A stretch of 64,000 bases of DNA from an uncultured Candidatus Binatia bacterium (GCA_965243855.1 CBDEWE010000002.1:31659-95658); one strand, 5' to 3'; shown: positions 2,967 to 31,553, counted from the first letter of the stretch. Translations and numbers: made by a program. Notes: generated by a model not told the origin, from the letters alone.

Positions 2967-2985
2967 CCCTACATGGATTACGAGG
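2967..2985 (-). promoter_or_regulatory. Cargo-gene upstream motif, copy 1 of 6 (CCTCGTAATCCATGTAGGG)
   Basis: Read directly; points toward the 2882 start codon. Confidence 0.6.
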
Positions 2986-3306
2986 AAGCGGAAAAAATTG
3001 CCGCCCCTGCCGGGGTACTGTAGGCGGGGGGCGGATCGTCCGCCCCCCGCGGCGAGAGGCGGGCGGGCGGGCCGGGCCGCAACCGGGCCCGGCCCGCGTC
3101 GGCCCAGCAGTGCGGCCACCACGCGGCGAGCGAGACCAGCCCCAGTTCAAGCCACCTGTCTACCGCCCGCTGGGCCTAGGACCACCCTGAGGAGGGGAAA
3201 CCAGCCGGGAAACAGCACCAGAGGTCATCAACACGCAGTGCGTTCTCCAGAAGGCTCTCCTTCACTGTTTTCATCCTCCTAATACATATAACCCGTCGAT
3301 AAATTC

Positions 3307-3371
3307 TTGACTGATTCGGAAAATCCTGTTAGAGCAACCCCTTAACTTAGGACCTACCGTCAGTCCTAAGT
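3307..3371 (+). promoter_or_regulatory. Putative virB promoter with a downstream operator-like inverted repeat
   Basis: TTGACT(3307)-17 nt-TAGAGC with an extended TG. Perfect 9-bp IR ACTTAGGAC-N9-GTCCTAAGT at 3345-3371. Confidence 0.5.
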
Positions 3372-3421
3372 AATGTTCAATCTGTCCGACTCGCGTCGGG
3401 GGCAAATCCAAGGAGGTTCAT

Positions 3422-3748
3422 ATGCCTCTATCGCTATTCTCCGAGGTAGACATACCCCAATCGCTGGGCCGCTCGGCTTTCGTTCTCCTTCTCTTCGTCG
3501 CTCTCTACCCACCGGACCTCGCCTGGGTGCAAGCCCTGGGTCCGGCGCCAGGCGTAGCGGATATGTTCGGGACCTTCCTGGCCGGTACATTCACACGCTC
3601 GATGGACATCATCGGCCTCGCCGTCTGCGGCTTCATGACGATGGCGGGCGGACTTGAGGCCGGGGGTCTGGGCGGCGGAGGCGACAGCCTCAATGAGCGC
3701 CGAACGCCAGCCGGCGCACACTACACGCCACGCAGAGGAGGTTTCTAA
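3422..3748 (+). CDS. Divergent VirB2-like pilin paralog lacking the second hydrophobic helix
   Basis: VADMFGTFLAGTF...IIGLAVCGFM aligns with VADMFVDFLTGTF...VIGMAVCGFM of the next gene; the C-terminus is polar. RBS AGGAGG. Confidence 0.6.
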   Translation: MPLSLFSEVDIPQSLGRSAFVLLLFVALYPPDLAWVQALGPAPGVADMFGTFLAGTFTRSMDIIGLAVCGFMTMAGGLEAGGLGGGGDSLNERRTPAGAHYTPRRGGF

Positions 3749-4053
3749 TGCACACCCACAGACTGTTCTTTCCCGGACTGTTCATCACCTACGCCTGCAC
3801 GCTGCTCCTGCTTCCGGACCGTGCCTGGGCTCAGGCCCTGGAACCGGTGCAAAACGTGGCGGATATGTTCGTGGACTTCCTGACCGGCACGTTTGCCACC
3901 AGCGTCGCCGTCATCGGCATGGCCGTCTGCGGCTTCATGGCGATGATGGGCCGCCTCCCCTGGGGCGCGGCCCTGGCCGTCATCGGCGGCATCATCCTGA
4001 TCTTCGGCGCGGCCAACATCGTCGATGAAATCCAGGGCTTCGCGGGAGGGTAG
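3748..4053 (+). CDS. virB2: TrbC/VirB2 family pilin
   Basis: Signal peptide ending AWA, two hydrophobic helices with the GR.PW...VIGG..LIFGA pilin pattern, first full gene of the operon. Confidence 0.9.
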   Translation: MHTHRLFFPGLFITYACTLLLLPDRAWAQALEPVQNVADMFVDFLTGTFATSVAVIGMAVCGFMAMMGRLPWGAALAVIGGIILIFGAANIVDEIQGFAGG

Positions 4054-4060
4054 GCCGGTC

Positions 4061-4342
4061 ATGGCGCGCCAGCAGGACCACCTGTTCCTCGCGCTCACCC
4101 GGCCGGCGATGGTCTGGGGTGTGACCTACAACTACGTCATCATCAATATGGTCGTGACGGGAATGGTTTTCGTCTGGACCGGCTCCTTTCTGGCCCTGGC
4201 CGCCGGCATTCCGGTGCATGGCGTCGGCTACATCGCCTGCCTGCGCGAACCGCGCCGGTTTGATCTCTGGTTTGTCCGGCTACGCCTGTGTCTGCCCGCC
4301 CCGACGCGCTTCTTTTGGGGTGGCAACTCCTACCGGCCCTAG
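4061..4342 (+). CDS. virB3: VirB3
   Basis: LFLALTRPAMVWGV motif, two TM segments, between virB2 and virB4. Confidence 0.9.
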   Translation: MARQQDHLFLALTRPAMVWGVTYNYVIINMVVTGMVFVWTGSFLALAAGIPVHGVGYIACLREPRRFDLWFVRLRLCLPAPTRFFWGGNSYRP

Positions 4343-4351
4343 GAGGAACAT

Positions 4352-29076: not shown

Positions 29077-29250
29077 AAAAACGGGGCGCTCATTTGCCGT
29101 ATATGGGCCGATCTCACCGGGCCAAAGGGGAAGGATCGTGGGATTTCGGCCCCGTCCCGCCGGATATTATTCGGTGGTGGGGTGTCCGGAACTGCTGCGC
29201 GGGGTCTGGCTCAGGTCGGGTCGGGGGCGGCCTTGCTGTCTCTGACCTTA
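29077..29250. repeat. Block also present at about 58690-58860
   Basis: gccgtataYgggccgatctcaccgggcc...gatttcgg...atattatt...gtgtccggaac in both copies. Confidence 0.8.
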
Positions 29251-29623
29251 AATCATTAGGCAAAAAGCGCGCCGCGACGGGGGGCGAGGAGAAGACTGGT
29301 CACGTCTTCCGCTGTTTTCGCGGCCACCGGCGCTGGATACGCCGACGCGCATTAGCGGACCGAGGCGGTTGCGGGGGGGCGGGAGAGGGGAGGGGCATAT
29401 CGCCTCAGCCTTGGTCCGCCGAGGCGGCAGCCCAAACAACTCCCGGGCGCGGTCTCGTTCCGGAGGAGGAGTCCTTTATACACCACTTCGACGCTCGGGA
29501 TGTCCACTTCATTGTATCTCCACTCAATCGGTGAAGCTGGTGTTGTCAAAAAGTAGATGAACTGGTCGAACTGGGCATGTCCGCGGAAGGCCGACCGGGG
29601 CGCCTGCTAACTAATGACACGCC

Positions 29624-30004
29624 TTAGCGTACCAGGAAGAGCGATTGATCTTTAAGAATAGCCTTAACGTGCGCCAAGTTAGCCAGTGCTTTGATGCCAG
29701 CGGAGGTGGCTTCTACAGGGATTGAGCCCAACGCGTCTGGGCGCGAGGCCAGACGTTTTCCTCCAGACTCTTGCAAAATGACGTCGATATCTCTAAGCGC
29801 CGGTGAGGCTGATTGACGAATTGTCTCGACTCTTGCCTTACGAAGGTTAGGACGGTTTGGACGCCGGGCCAATGCCGTCCCCGGAGCTTTGGTACGAAGC
29901 AAAATGATCGCCCGGACTTTTTGCTTAGGATCGAGCCGGTCTAGTCGTGTAGAGAACTCACGGCTGATGGCGGACTGTTGGGAGGAATTCCCTTGCTCTG
30001 TCAT
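29624..30004 (-). CDS. Hypothetical protein resembling a stand-alone subtilase propeptide
   Basis: VRAIILL...ALGSIPVEATSAGIKALANLAHVKAILKDQ ferredoxin-like pattern (recall). Confidence 0.5.
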   Translation of the reverse strand: MTEQGNSSQQSAISREFSTRLDRLDPKQKVRAIILLRTKAPGTALARRPNRPNLRKARVETIRQSASPALRDIDVILQESGGKRLASRPDALGSIPVEATSAGIKALANLAHVKAILKDQSLFLVR

Positions 30005-30230
30005 TGCAGTGCCAATCGTAGCAGTGGCCATGAGCTAGAGAGATTTGAGCGCTTCGACTGGCCGGATAAGACCGTATCCCCAGCGGTTATCGGGTCGCTG
30101 TTCCTCTCCATCTGGATGCTTCGCGGTTTCCCTGAGCACCACCATGATGTCGCTCACAGAAGCTTTGGGTTTTGCTGCCATCAAAAGAGCGGCGCCCGCC
30201 CCGGCCCCATCCCCCAGGGGAAGGCGGCGG

Positions 30231-31370
30231 TTACCGCCGCGCCAAAGCGGTGACGGCCAGCACCAGCCGCACCAACTCGGCCTGCCGATGGATATGATGC
30301 TTGCGGTAAATCTGTCGCAGGTGCCAATGAACCGCCCCGACCGTGCGCCCCGTGGCCTGGGCGATCTCGGTCACGGTCCGCCCGGCCGTCACCCCCACGG
30401 CCACCTCGCTCTCGCCCGGGGTCAGCCCGAGCACCTCGGCCACGACCGCCGGCTCAAGCCCGGCCGTCCAGTCCGGCTCGACCAGCAGCATGAGGGCCGC
30501 GACGGCGCGCACTCCCAAGTCCGCCGCCGGGCGGGCGACGGGGGTGACGTGCACCACGAGCGGCGCCGACAGCCGCTGGAGGCGCATCGACCCACTGACG
30601 GCCGGGCCGCTGGTGGGCGCCAGCGCGCCCGCGACCAGCCGCGCCAGCCGCGCCCGCTCGGCCGGGACGCCGATACTCAGCCTTTCCCACCCGCTCGCCT
30701 CACCATTACCCTGCCGCAGCAGGGCGGCGGCCCGCTCATTCGCCTCGATGATCTGCCCATCCCGGTCCAGGTAGAGGACCCCAATCCCCTGGCTGTCGAG
30801 CAGCCCGCTCAGCGCCGCCCCCGGCGCGGTGGCCGTGACCAGCGCCTGCCGAACCCGCACGAATTGCCGGATGTGGGGCAGCAGCCCCTTCATCAGCGCG
30901 TGTTGCGCCGCCGCCCAGCCCCCCCGGGTGACCGGGTCGCCGGTGGCCCAGGCGATGGTGCTGCCCGCCGGCCCGTCCAGCCGCGCTATCACGCCCTGCT
31001 GCCCGCCGATCCGGCGTAACCCCTCGTTATAGGCCCGTGAGGTCTGCAACTCCTCCGCCGTGTACAGGTCGGCGAGGCGGACGAGATGGCGGTCGGGCAG
31101 CTGTAGGAAGCGCGGCACGCATTCGTTGCCCGGCTGGTATACGGCGAGCCACTCGCGTTCCCACTCGGCGTGGCGCTCCCCCCGCTTGTAGATCCCGACG
31201 AAGTGGGGCGGGGACTCGGCCGCCGGGCCGCCGCTGACCACCAGGGCGTTGCCCACCGTACCCACGGCTTCATCAATCAGGGCCGAGGCGGCCGGCCACA
31301 GAGCATCATCGAGCGTGGCCTCCTGCACCGTCGCCACAATACGTTCAAATGCGTCTTGGTCACTCATCAC
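30231..31370 (-). CDS. LuxR-family HTH regulator with GAF/PAS-like N-terminus
   Basis: C-terminal LTPGESEVA...G.TVTEIA...VHWHLRQIYRK...QAELV. Confidence 0.9.
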   Translation of the reverse strand: MMSDQDAFERIVATVQEATLDDALWPAASALIDEAVGTVGNALVVSGGPAAESPPHFVGIYKRGERHAEWEREWLAVYQPGNECVPRFLQLPDRHLVRLADLYTAEELQTSRAYNEGLRRIGGQQGVIARLDGPAGSTIAWATGDPVTRGGWAAAQHALMKGLLPHIRQFVRVRQALVTATAPGAALSGLLDSQGIGVLYLDRDGQIIEANERAAALLRQGNGEASGWERLSIGVPAERARLARLVAGALAPTSGPAVSGSMRLQRLSAPLVVHVTPVARPAADLGVRAVAALMLLVEPDWTAGLEPAVVAEVLGLTPGESEVAVGVTAGRTVTEIAQATGRTVGAVHWHLRQIYRKHHIHRQAELVRLVLAVTALARR

Positions 31371-31456
31371 TCCCCTCTCCTCGATCCCCGGCCCCCGCCC
31401 TCCTGGTGGCGGGGCCGTGTACTGAGGTCTTCTCTACGCCATCCGCCCCCGCTTGT

Positions 31457-31475
31457 CCCTACATGCATTACGAGG
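31457..31475 (-). promoter_or_regulatory. Cargo-gene upstream motif, copy 5 (CCTCGTAATGCATGTAGGG)
   Basis: Faces 30231..31370; back-to-back with copy 6. Confidence 0.6.
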
Positions 31476-31534
31476 GAGCCCTACAAAAATTCATAGGATC
31501 GGGGCGGAAAGCGCCCGTCATTTTTTTACCCTGC

Positions 31535-31553
31535 CCTCCTAATCTATGTAGGG
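31535..31553 (+). promoter_or_regulatory. Cargo-gene upstream motif, copy 6 (CCTCCTAATCTATGTAGGG)
   Basis: Faces 31756..33182. Confidence 0.55.

What the first reader, a model, noticed from the sequence alone, without database searches (positions are those of the whole stretch)
2967..31553. Six-copy 19-bp motif (CCTCNTAATNYATGTAGGG) always pointing into a cargo gene
Seen at 2967-2985(-), 20634-20652(+), 23315-23333(-), 27768-27786(+), 31457-31475(-) and 31535-31553(+). Each faces the next cargo gene (secreted proteins or LuxR regulators), and copies 5 and 6 are back-to-back in a divergent region. Similarity extends about 25 nt downstream to GC...GTA(T/G); copies 2 and 3 share AGCGAAGTGTCGTAT. 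I saw no such motif before tra, anti-defence or defence genes. Inference: a shared activator- or alternative-sigma-dependent promoter forming a cargo regulon (possibly read by the two LuxR paralogs), or a gene-capture recombination site.
Basis: partly seen in the sequence, partly recalled or inferred. Interest (0 to 1): 0.72.

Follow-up and report, generated by a model that had tools for sequence, protein, structure and literature searches.

The report
LuxR-type promoter-operator for plasmid cargo
The repeated 19-bp motif is most likely the binding site, built into a roughly 60-bp promoter, for a signal-sensing LuxR-type regulator that a conjugative element uses to switch on its own secreted cargo proteins and regulators; this is a familiar kind of switch in an unusual, lopsided form.

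Summary
There are six exact copies (none expected by chance) plus a degenerate seventh. All are intergenic and each points into a co-oriented cargo or regulator gene. The motif is the core of a ~60-bp module: TTT at -12..-10, the 19-mer, then A.A, TG and GTA at fixed offsets.

Collection scans of genomes, metagenomes and viral contigs gave only chance hits. The motif does recur on the two contigs that encode close orthologs (91%, 71%) of one window regulator, PAS-LuxR paralog "LuxR1". More distant relatives carry the same module with a palindromic 19-mer, CCTAGTCA(A/T)(A/T)TGACTAGGG, at the same fixed distance from GTA, often 90-135 nt upstream of a PAS-LuxR gene.

Both forms fit the CT-N12-AG rule of lux/las boxes. 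The dyad centre lies 30.5 bp from the conserved TA, the lux-box (-42.5) geometry. Recognition-helix residues co-vary with operator type.

Best reading: a class-II-type, LuxR1-dependent, autoregulated cargo promoter. It is an asymmetric derivative of a lux-box-like operator. Synteny breakpoints against a related element cluster at the modules but at varying offsets. That suggests recombination between repeated promoters rather than a dedicated recombination site. No transcription start or binding data exist.

The parts
2939..2998 (-). Promoter-operator module c1 (19-mer 2967-2985; GTA at 2945-2947). Faces the 698-aa secreted protein gene.
   Evidence: Exact match; module extent from nhmmer, 49 bits; alignment.
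20621..20681 (+). Module c2 (19-mer 20634-20652; GTA at 20672-20674). Faces an 80-aa gene remnant, then the 147-aa secreted protein gene.
   Evidence: Forms a 76-nt inverted repeat with c3.
23286..23345 (-). Module c3 (19-mer 23315-23333). Faces the 148-aa secreted protein gene 22449-22895(-).
   Evidence: Homolog in L116 (module d), with the homology break about 10 nt after the 19-mer.
27754..27815 (+). Module c4 (19-mer 27768-27786). Faces the 253-aa secreted protein gene 28143-28904.
   Evidence: Nearly identical to L116 module c through GTA (+22), unrelated downstream.
31428..31489 (-). Module c5 (19-mer 31457-31475), 90 nt upstream of the LuxR1 start codon.
   Evidence: Same position before the LuxR1 orthologs in L115 and L116.
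31479..31497 (-). Degenerate tandem copy c7 (CCTATGAATTTTTGTAGGG), 22 bp centre-to-centre upstream of c5.
   Evidence: Conserved in L115. A weaker counterpart, CCTGTTAATTTTTATGAAA, is in L116.
31521..31581 (+). Module c6 (19-mer 31535-31553), divergent from c5. Faces the small secreted ORF and LuxR2.
30231..31367 (-). LuxR1: 378-aa regulator with two PAS-like modules and a C-terminal LuxR/GerE HTH. Proposed reader of the 19-mer.
   Evidence: Pfam GerE/PAS; structure model and fold matches to LasR, RhlR, SdiA, VqmA and EL222; orthologs co-occur with the motif; distinct recognition helix RTVGAVHWH.
32037..33182 (+). LuxR2: 381-aa paralog, 43% identical to LuxR1. Its start overlaps the end of the small ORF, so it is probably co-transcribed from c6.
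   Evidence: Orthologs in L064 and L070 go with palindromic operators and D8.
31754..32040 (+). Small signal-peptide ORF behind c6. Its N-terminus is paralogous to that of the 147-aa protein behind c2.
   Evidence: repeats D3, D9.
786..2882 (-). 698-aa secreted cargo protein behind c1. Shares a ~135-aa domain with the 927-aa protein.
21302..21745 (+). 147-aa signal-peptide cargo protein behind c2.
22449..22895 (-). 148-aa signal-peptide cargo protein behind c3. Its ortholog in L116 sits behind the c4-type module.
28143..28904 (+). 253-aa signal-peptide, Pro/Cys-rich cargo protein behind c4.
33296..36079 (+). 927-aa secreted modular protein downstream of LuxR2. It is preceded by its own D8-type module.
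33198..33260 (+). D8 module: a second operator type (CCAAAATTTTCG...CCGCAAAAATACCCAAAATTGGGGAGGAAA) with the same core (GGRA / TG / (G/A)TA). A decayed copy is at 31671-31707.

Best explanation
Each copy is the operator of a ~60-bp promoter module. A weak core promoter (-35-like GGGA(A/C)A, 17-bp spacer, TG..GTAKRR as the -10 region) is overlapped at about -51..-33 by the 19-mer, preceded by a T-tract. The 19-mer is an asymmetric derivative of a lux-box-like palindrome with a CT-N12-AG frame. It is bound by a dimer of the element's own PAS-LuxR regulator LuxR1. When the PAS-type sensor modules receive their unknown signal, LuxR1 recruits RNA polymerase in class II fashion. This switches on LuxR1 itself (positive autoregulation, helped by the tandem degenerate site), the small-ORF/LuxR2 operon, and four operons of secreted cargo proteins. 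The transfer, anti-defence and defence genes are left outside the circuit. Shown here: the motif, its module, its orientation and positions, its co-occurrence with LuxR1 orthologs, the palindromic relatives, and the fixed operator-to-GTA spacing.
For: (1) There are six of six copies in the window. In related loci, 12 of 15 module instances have a co-oriented called gene as the next gene.
(2) The generalised module CCT-N11-TAGGG-N19/20-(G/A)TA occurs 25 times in 230 kb of window plus related loci, against 0.5 in shuffles.
(3) The asymmetric form occurs only on the three contigs that encode LuxR1 or its orthologs of at least 71% identity (window, L115, L116). Each time one copy lies about 90 nt before that gene. 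It is absent from eight loci that hold only other family members.
(4) More distant relatives have a 16/18-symmetric palindrome in the same frame: 12/19 positions shared and the same distance to GTA. It lies 92-134 nt before PAS-LuxR genes. A perfect dyad implies a dimeric DNA-binding protein.
(5) The recognition helix co-varies with operator type: RTVGA(V/I)HWH with the asymmetric site, RT(D/E/Q)ATVR(Y/S)H with palindromic sites.
(6) The 19-mer and D8 module types share GGRA at -22..-19 and TG at -4/-3 relative to (G/A)TA, and differ only in the operator. This points to one core promoter with exchangeable operators.
(7) Both 19-mer forms fit CT(N12)AG (PMC2018727). The dyad centre lies 30.5 bp from the conserved TA, the same as -42.5 to -12 for the lux box (PMC3376562). 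Streptomyces PAS-LuxR activators bind a CT-N12-AG palindrome in the -35 region (PMC9774167).
(8) LuxR1 has a LuxR/GerE HTH (10 of 11 family members hit PF00196). Its fold resembles ligand-sensing LuxR-type receptors.
Against: There is no transcription start, expression or binding evidence of any kind.
- The window's 19-mer has little dyad symmetry (6-10 of 18), unlike classical LuxR-family sites.
- The proposed -10 (TA followed by purines, with no T at the sixth position) is not a good primary-sigma hexamer. The holoenzyme is therefore unknown.
- Three leaders are 357-650 nt long.
- Copy 4 has a perfect TATAAT about 35 nt past the motif that the other copies lack.
- The LuxR1 link rests on three related contigs, one of them nearly identical to the window. 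A third paralog (P0125), apparently on the same 110-kb contig, could not be inspected.
- Palindromic operators are found with two different recognition-helix types, so the helix-operator code is not one-to-one.
Confidence: 0.62

Rival explanations
1. The module is a promoter and the 19-mer an operator, but the reader is not a LuxR1 homodimer. It could be another element- or host-encoded DNA-binding protein, or a heterodimer of two PAS-LuxR paralogs in which each partner reads one of the two unlike half-sites.
For: Both unlike halves are strictly conserved across 10 copies. That is easier to explain if two different subunits read them. Several paralogs coexist: LuxR1, LuxR2, and P0125 on a contig of the same length. 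L116 has a stand-alone 101-aa GerE HTH gene behind one module.
Against: L116 keeps the motif without a LuxR2 ortholog. No candidate other than LuxR1 co-occurs with the motif in all three contigs. The other HTH/RHH proteins in the window belong to toxin-antitoxin, ImmA/IrrE or relaxosome pairs.
Confidence: 0.14
2. The 19-mer is a repressor operator. A LuxR-type or other protein sits on the -35 region and keeps the cargo silent until a signal releases it.
For: The site overlaps the putative -35 element, where bound proteins can also occlude RNA polymerase. Some LuxR-family members act as repressors (my own knowledge, not checked here).
Against: The core -35 and -10 elements are weak, which is typical of activator-dependent promoters. 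The geometry matches the class II lux-box position (PMC3376562). The characterised PAS-LuxR proteins with sites in the -35 region are activators (PMC9774167).
Confidence: 0.1
3. The module is a promoter for a dedicated alternative (ECF-like) sigma factor. TGTAGGGA.A serves as the -35 and (C/G)GTA as the -10, with no separate activator.
For: The conserved GGGA.A and GTA elements lie about 17 bp apart. The -10 resembles ECF-type CGTA more than TATAAT.
Against: There is no sigma gene in the window. The same GGRA/GTA core occurs under unrelated upstream operators: D8, CCACCAATTTTGGTGG and CTATCATTTGTTAG. The specific 19-mer upstream half is therefore not explained by a sigma. Palindromic relatives argue for a dimeric binder.
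Confidence: 0.07
4. The copies are recombination sites: cassette ends, inverted terminal repeats of non-autonomous cassettes, or shufflon-like sites at which cargo is captured or inverted.
For: Copies 2/3 and 4/5 are inverted pairs that bracket 2.6-kb and 3.7-kb cargo segments. Homology between the window and L116 breaks at the modules, and different cargo follows the same module. Leaders of c2 and c6 contain remnants of deleted genes.
Against: The breakpoints lie at different offsets (about -30, +10 and +22), not at one crossover point. No direct repeats flank the c2/c3 pair (sequence read). The only integrase is about 20 kb away. The sites are intergenic and promoter-like, always facing a gene, and have palindromic relatives upstream of regulator genes. 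Repeated 60-bp promoters are expected to be substrates for ordinary homologous recombination.
Confidence: 0.05
5. The motif is a promoter for a phage-type single-subunit RNA polymerase. The 3' end TGTAGGGA.A resembles TATAGGGAGA of T7-group promoters.
For: It is an asymmetric, almost invariant motif of about 22 bp that ends in TAGGGA. The resemblance to T7 promoters is from my own knowledge.
Against: No such polymerase is in the window; the large unannotated proteins have signal peptides or no matches. The conserved elements 16-28 nt downstream, the palindromic relatives and the co-variation with LuxR-type helices are all unexplained by this reading.
Confidence: 0.02

Closest known systems
lux box / LuxR (Vibrio fischeri) and las-rhl boxes (LasR, RhlR)
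   Same: An 18-20-bp operator with a CT-N12-AG frame. It overlaps the -35 region, with its centre about 30.5 bp upstream of the first base of the -10 element (lux box at -42.5; PMC3376562, PMC2018727). Autoregulation is also shared. The LuxR1 model resembles LasR, RhlR and SdiA in fold.
   Different: There is no autoinducer-binding domain hit (PF03472 absent). Instead there are two PAS-like modules and no AHL synthase gene in the window. The window's operator is asymmetric (6-10 of 18 symmetric positions). The targets are mobile-element cargo genes.
Streptomyces PAS-LuxR activators (PimM archetype)
   Same: A PAS sensor plus a C-terminal LuxR HTH. The operator is a palindrome-like CT-N12-AG site (CTVGGGAWWTCCCBAG) in the -35 region of target promoters, and a small dedicated regulon is controlled (PMC9774167).
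   Different: The proteins here are about twice as long (378-381 aa, with an extra N-terminal PAS-like module). The operator sequence is different. They lie on a conjugative element of an uncultured, probably Nitrospira-like lineage rather than in antibiotic gene clusters. Homology to PimM was not tested.
VqmA and EL222 (PAS/LOV-HTH one-component regulators)
   Same: A PAS-type sensor is fused to a LuxR-type HTH. These are structural neighbours of the LuxR1 model.
   Different: TM-scores for the whole chain are low. They have a single PAS domain. Their operators were not compared.
Shufflon sfx sites of IncI plasmids (19-bp repeats recombined by Rci)
   Same: Short asymmetric repeats of about 19 bp in inverted orientation on a conjugative element (my own knowledge).
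   Different: sfx sites lie inside coding segments and need the adjacent rci gene. Here the sites are intergenic, promoter-like and face genes. No recombinase is adjacent and the breakpoints are not fixed.

Membership tests
LuxR-type (lux/las-box) class II activator-dependent promoter | 18-20-bp operator with conserved CT-N12-AG frame | tested here: met
   C2 T3 and A16 G17 are invariant in all asymmetric and palindromic copies. Frame as described in PMC2018727.
LuxR-type (lux/las-box) class II activator-dependent promoter | Dyad symmetry of the operator | tested here: not met
   Window copies score 6-10 of 18 symmetric positions. The palindromic relatives in L064, L070 and L117 score 16 of 18.
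LuxR-type (lux/las-box) class II activator-dependent promoter | Operator centred near -42.5, overlapping -35 | tested here: inconclusive
   No transcription start is known. The dyad centre lies 30.5 bp upstream of the conserved TA, which equals the -42.5 to -12 distance. GGGA.A falls where a -35 hexamer with a 17-bp spacer would lie.
LuxR-type (lux/las-box) class II activator-dependent promoter | Cognate LuxR-family HTH regulator encoded nearby | tested here: met
   Two PAS-LuxR genes flank copies 5 and 6. GerE hits occur in 10 of 11 family members. The motif lies about 90 nt before LuxR1 and its orthologs.
LuxR-type (lux/las-box) class II activator-dependent promoter | Regulator binds the site and activates transcription | not testable with these tools
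   Needs EMSA, footprinting or DAP-seq, plus reporter assays.
AHL-responsive LuxR quorum-sensing receptors | N-terminal autoinducer-binding domain (PF03472) | tested here: not met
   Only GerE and weak PAS hits were found. The LasR ligand-binding domain is a structural neighbour, but at TM about 0.3 relative to the query.
PAS-LuxR regulators (PimM type) | PAS domain plus C-terminal LuxR HTH | tested here: met
   PAS_8/PAS_4 hits are below threshold, while GerE is above threshold in LuxR2 and most relatives. The model shows two PAS-like alpha/beta modules and a four-helix HTH.
PAS-LuxR regulators (PimM type) | Operator matching CTVGGGAWWTCCCBAG | tested here: not met
   Only the CT...AG frame is shared. 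The inner bases differ (one search compared with PMC9774167).
Site-specific recombination site (shufflon sfx, cassette end, transposon inverted repeat) | Fixed crossover point at the repeat | tested here: not met
   Window-L116 homology breaks at about -30, +10 and +22 relative to the 19-mer.
Site-specific recombination site (shufflon sfx, cassette end, transposon inverted repeat) | Dedicated recombinase next to the sites; target-site duplications | tested here: not met
   The only integrase is at 52091-53044. No direct repeats flank the c2/c3 inverted pair (flanks read).
Alternative-sigma (ECF-type) promoter | Cognate sigma factor gene on the element | tested here: not met
   No sigma-70 family domain above noise was found in any window protein scanned. 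The 46 kb of the contig outside the window was not seen.
T7-type single-subunit RNA polymerase promoter | Single-subunit RNA polymerase gene on the element | tested here: not met
   No RNA polymerase family hit was found.

The most novel reading that the evidence does not exclude
The promoter modules do two jobs. First, the asymmetric 19-mer is read by a heterodimer of two diverged PAS-LuxR paralogs, one per unlike half-site, which gives the element a private regulatory channel. Second, the repeated modules act as standard joints at which cargo genes are swapped by recombination. Any newly joined gene would then come at once under the element's own signal-dependent control, as a plug-in promoter system for mobile-element cargo.
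Probability: 0.12. Interest if true: 0.75.

Novelty: new variant of a known kind. Interest (0 to 1): 0.5.

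Why it matters
If correct, a conjugative element from a poorly sampled, probably Nitrospira-like lineage keeps its secreted cargo on a separate, signal-gated circuit that it encodes itself. That circuit is distinct from transfer and defence functions.

The data also give a natural series of operator variants: a perfect palindrome, the asymmetric 19-mer, and others. These are paired with recognition-helix variants in a regulator family of well over 1,000 members. This makes a ready-made system for studying how LuxR-type DNA specificity evolves.

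The clustering of rearrangement borders at the modules suggests how cargo can be exchanged between elements without losing regulation. None of this departs from known principles of LuxR-type regulation.

Tried and rejected
- **Similarity and RNA searches.** Near-identity search of the first 25 kb against plasmids gave no match. Rfam and tRNA scans of the window found nothing.
- **Motif scans of public collections.** The genome scan gave 56 single hits in unrelated phyla, none with the flanking signature. The strict metagenome pattern gave 0 hits. The relaxed metagenome pattern gave 43 hits and the viral scan 7 hits, all chance, including one unrelated conserved coding sequence.
- **Primary-sigma promoter.** I tried to read the module as an ordinary primary-sigma promoter in several registers by eye, and no register gave acceptable -35 and -10 hexamers. 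The consensus scanner found no sigma-70-like site at any copy.
- **T7-like promoter.** Rejected for lack of a polymerase gene and because of the palindromic relatives.
- **Terminator reading of the upstream T-tract.** One hairpin plus T-run lies before copy 6. It sits between divergent promoters with no gene to terminate, and the other copies lack such a hairpin.
- **Inverted terminal repeats.** Copies 2 and 3 show no target-site duplication.
- **Taxonomy.** Cluster look-up and the ArdC homolog search gave no organism names. VirD4 against plasmids gave at most 37% identity.
- **Other.** A sequence search of LuxR1 against PDB found nothing. Fetching the rest of the window's contig through P0125 or the window's own proteins failed.

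Full report
**1. The observation**

The pattern CCTCNTAATNYATGTAGGG has exactly six matches, at the coordinates and strands given, and none in 100 dinucleotide-preserving shuffles. With up to three mismatches one more site appears: 31479-31497(-), CCTATGAATTTTTGTAGGG, 3 bp upstream of copy 5.

Oriented on the motif strand, the similarity runs beyond the 19-mer.
- TTT is invariant at -12..-10.
- Downstream, A+1, A+3, G+10, T+16 G+17, G+20 T+21 A+22 (then T or G) and A+27 G+28 are invariant.

The conserved unit is therefore a module of about 60 bp. Copies 2 and 3 share AGCGAAGTGTCGTAT and form a 76-nt inverted repeat. A profile HMM of the module finds no other copy in the window.

**2. Context**

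The window is part of a conjugative element.
- Transfer genes: VirB4, VirB6, VirB8, VirB9, VirB10, VirB11, VirD4, a MobA-type relaxase and a MobC/NikA-like protein.
- Anti-defence and replication-related genes: ArdC and SSB.
- An integrase.
- Defence genes: ThsB-TIR, DUF6414 and Cap4/CTD7.

No sigma factor or RNA polymerase gene was found.

Every motif copy is intergenic and faces a co-oriented gene:

| Copy | Gene faced | Distance from motif end to start codon |
|---|---|---|
| c1 | 698-aa secreted protein | +85 |
| c5 | LuxR1 | +90 |
| c6 | small secreted ORF, whose end overlaps the LuxR2 start | about +203 |
| c4 | 253-aa secreted protein | +357 |
| c3 | 148-aa secreted protein | +420 |
| c2 | 147-aa secreted protein | +650 |

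The cargo proteins are related to each other. The 698-aa and 927-aa proteins share a ~135-aa domain. An 80-aa ORF in the c2 leader matches the C-terminus of the 927-aa protein.

**3. Is it found elsewhere?**

Exact-pattern scans of the genome, metagenome and viral collections gave only scattered single hits without the flanking signature. On its own the motif looks private to this element.

The regulator family is large, however. More than 1,100 (LuxR2 query) and 1,500 (LuxR1 query) homologs were found. Many lie on 4-5 Mb chromosomes with several paralogs each, and one is named as Nitrospira.

Loci that encode LuxR2-type orthologs (L064-L066, L070, L071) and chromosomal homologs (L067-L069) lack the 19-mer within 3-4 mismatches.

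The two contigs that encode close LuxR1 orthologs do carry it.
- L115 (91% identical ortholog) reproduces the copy 6 / degenerate copy / copy 5 layout.
- L116 (71% identical ortholog) is a related element with ArdC, HNH, PAPS-reductase-like and aspartyl-protease genes. It has four copies with the same flanks. One lies 89 nt before the LuxR1 ortholog. The others face small family-less genes, a stand-alone GerE HTH gene and a TetR gene.

**4. The palindromic relatives**

Upstream of a 64%-identical LuxR1-clade gene, L117/L118 have CCTAGTCAAATGACTAGGG, followed by ACA and by GTA at +20..22.

Searching for CCT-N11-TAGGG-N19/20-(G/A)TA gives 25 hits in 230 kb, against 0.5 in shuffles.
- These include palindromic sites in L064-L066, in L070/L071 (92 nt before the LuxR2 ortholog) and three in L117/L118.
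- The palindrome is symmetric at 16 of 18 positions; the window's form at 6-10 of 18. The two share 12 of 19 positions.
- Further variants in the same frame are (T)TCTATCATTTGTTAGGG in L119 and CCACCAATT(T/C)TGGTGG in the chromosomal loci. Each is followed by ACA and by GTA at the same distance.

A perfect dyad argues for a dimeric DNA-binding protein. It argues against an RNA element, a sigma-only promoter or a phage-type promoter.

**5. A shared core promoter**

A second element (D8: CCAAAAATTTTCG...CCGCAAAAATACCCAAAATTGGGGAGGAAA) lies between the LuxR2-type gene and the large secreted-protein gene in the window, L064 and L070.

Anchored on the (G/A)TA, D8 and the 19-mer modules share GGRA at -22..-19 and TG at -4/-3. 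They differ only upstream. If TA marks positions -12/-11, three things follow:
- GGGA(A/C)A is a -35-like hexamer with a 17-bp spacer.
- The 19-mer spans about -51..-33.
- The dyad centre is at -42.5.

That is the lux-box position (PMC3376562). All forms fit CT(N12)AG (PMC2018727). Streptomyces PAS-LuxR activators bind a CT-N12-AG palindrome in the -35 region (PMC9774167).

The putative -10 lacks the usual final T, so the sigma factor is not identified.

**6. Who reads it**

In an alignment of 11 family members, the recognition helix falls into groups.
- RTVGA(V/I)HWHLRQ in LuxR1, P0122 and P0123, the three proteins linked to the asymmetric site.
- RT(D/E)ATVRYH or RTQATVRSH in those linked to palindromic sites.

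GerE is detected in 10 of 11 members. A model of LuxR1 (pLDDT 72) shows two PAS-like modules, a long helix and a four-helix HTH. Its structural neighbours include LasR, RhlR, SdiA, CviR, VqmA and EL222.

I therefore assign the 19-mer to LuxR1-type regulators, with positive autoregulation.

In L070 a palindromic operator lies between the small ORF and the LuxR2 ortholog. In the window that stretch is missing (L070 223-634 corresponds to window 31999-32036). LuxR2 appears to have been placed under copy 6.

**7. The recombination idea**

Comparing the window with L116:
- Copy 4 and L116 module c are nearly identical from the backbone through GTA (+22), then unrelated. The window has the 253-aa gene there. 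L116 has the ortholog of the 148-aa gene, which in the window sits behind copy 3.
- Copy 3 and L116 module d diverge about 10 nt after the 19-mer.
- Upstream of copy 5 the homology ends about 30 nt before the 19-mer. The window carries a 9.5-kb block (copy 6 through about 41008) that L116 lacks.

Rearrangement borders therefore coincide with the modules. They do so at different offsets, without target duplications and without a nearby recombinase. Ordinary recombination between repeated promoter modules explains this better than a dedicated site.

**8. Verdict**

The feature is real. It is best explained as an operator-promoter module of a LuxR-type regulon for mobile-element cargo, in an asymmetric variant. 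Confidence by step:
- About 0.8 that it is a promoter-operator.
- About 0.65 that the effect is activation.

It is a new variant of a known kind and is moderately interesting.

Noticed in passing
window 33198-33260 and 31671-31707; L064 11181-11215 and 15907-15941; L070 1796-1850 and 5348-5402: A second conserved upstream element (D8: CCAAAAATTTTCG...CCGCAAAAATACCCAAAATTGGGGAGGAAA). It has two short palindromes and lies before the large secreted-protein genes and just after LuxR2-type genes in three related elements. It shares the GGRA / TG / (G/A)TA core with the 19-mer module.
   Followed up: partly
window 21052-21294 and 31724-31745: The leaders of copies 2 and 6 contain remnants of the 3' end of a gene like the 927-aa one (...THFGVRG stop). 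Each remnant is followed by paralogous ribosome-binding regions and signal-peptide ORFs. A large gene seems to have been deleted behind these promoters.
   Followed up: partly
window 31999-32036 compared with L070 223-634: The window lacks about 370 nt that in L070 hold the end of the small ORF and a palindromic operator in front of the LuxR2 ortholog. In the window the small ORF and LuxR2 overlap.
   Followed up: partly
window 31498-41008: A 9.5-kb block is absent from the related element L116. It holds copy 6, the small ORF, LuxR2, the 927-aa and 778-aa proteins, an FAD-dependent halogenase-like gene and a FitA-like antitoxin. In L116 the 122-aa gene (window 41038-41406) directly abuts the LuxR1 promoter.
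   Followed up: partly
outside the window (protein P0125): A third PAS-LuxR paralog, 64% identical to LuxR1 and with a palindrome-type recognition helix, is recorded on a contig of 110,175 bp. That is the same length as the window's own contig. Its locus could not be fetched.
   Followed up: partly
window 874-1196, 33410-33820 and 33866-34261; L064 11378-12130 and 17663-18372; L070 2011-2773 and 6235-6406: A ~135-aa domain with no Pfam family is repeated in the secreted cargo proteins of this and related elements, including a protein with a weak Peptidase_M10 hit in L070.
   Followed up: no
window 27021-27644, 43406-43496, 44506-44659 and 58261-58514: Short backbone segments of L116 and L070 each match several places in the window at 75-87% identity. 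This points to a dispersed intergenic repeat family unrelated to the 19-mer.
   Followed up: no
window 15058-17406: A 782-aa protein made almost entirely of pentapeptide repeats lies directly after VirD4.
   Followed up: no
window 45227-63564: A lower-GC3 accessory region. It holds a NYN-domain protein, an exonuclease I-like gene, an ImmA/IrrE-XRE pair, DUF7665, a ThiF-like protein, an integrase, DUF3800, DUF6414, ThsB-TIR, a RelE-XRE pair and a Cap4-nuclease/CTD7 (ABC-3C) protein. None is preceded by the motif.
   Followed up: partly
window 27818-27826: Copy 4 alone has a perfect TATAAT about 35 nt downstream of the 19-mer. It might be a second, independent promoter in that leader.
   Followed up: no
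L064 3676-3843 and 8815-8920: Long G-rich tracts, with complementary C-rich tracts about 5 kb apart, in the related element.
   Followed up: no
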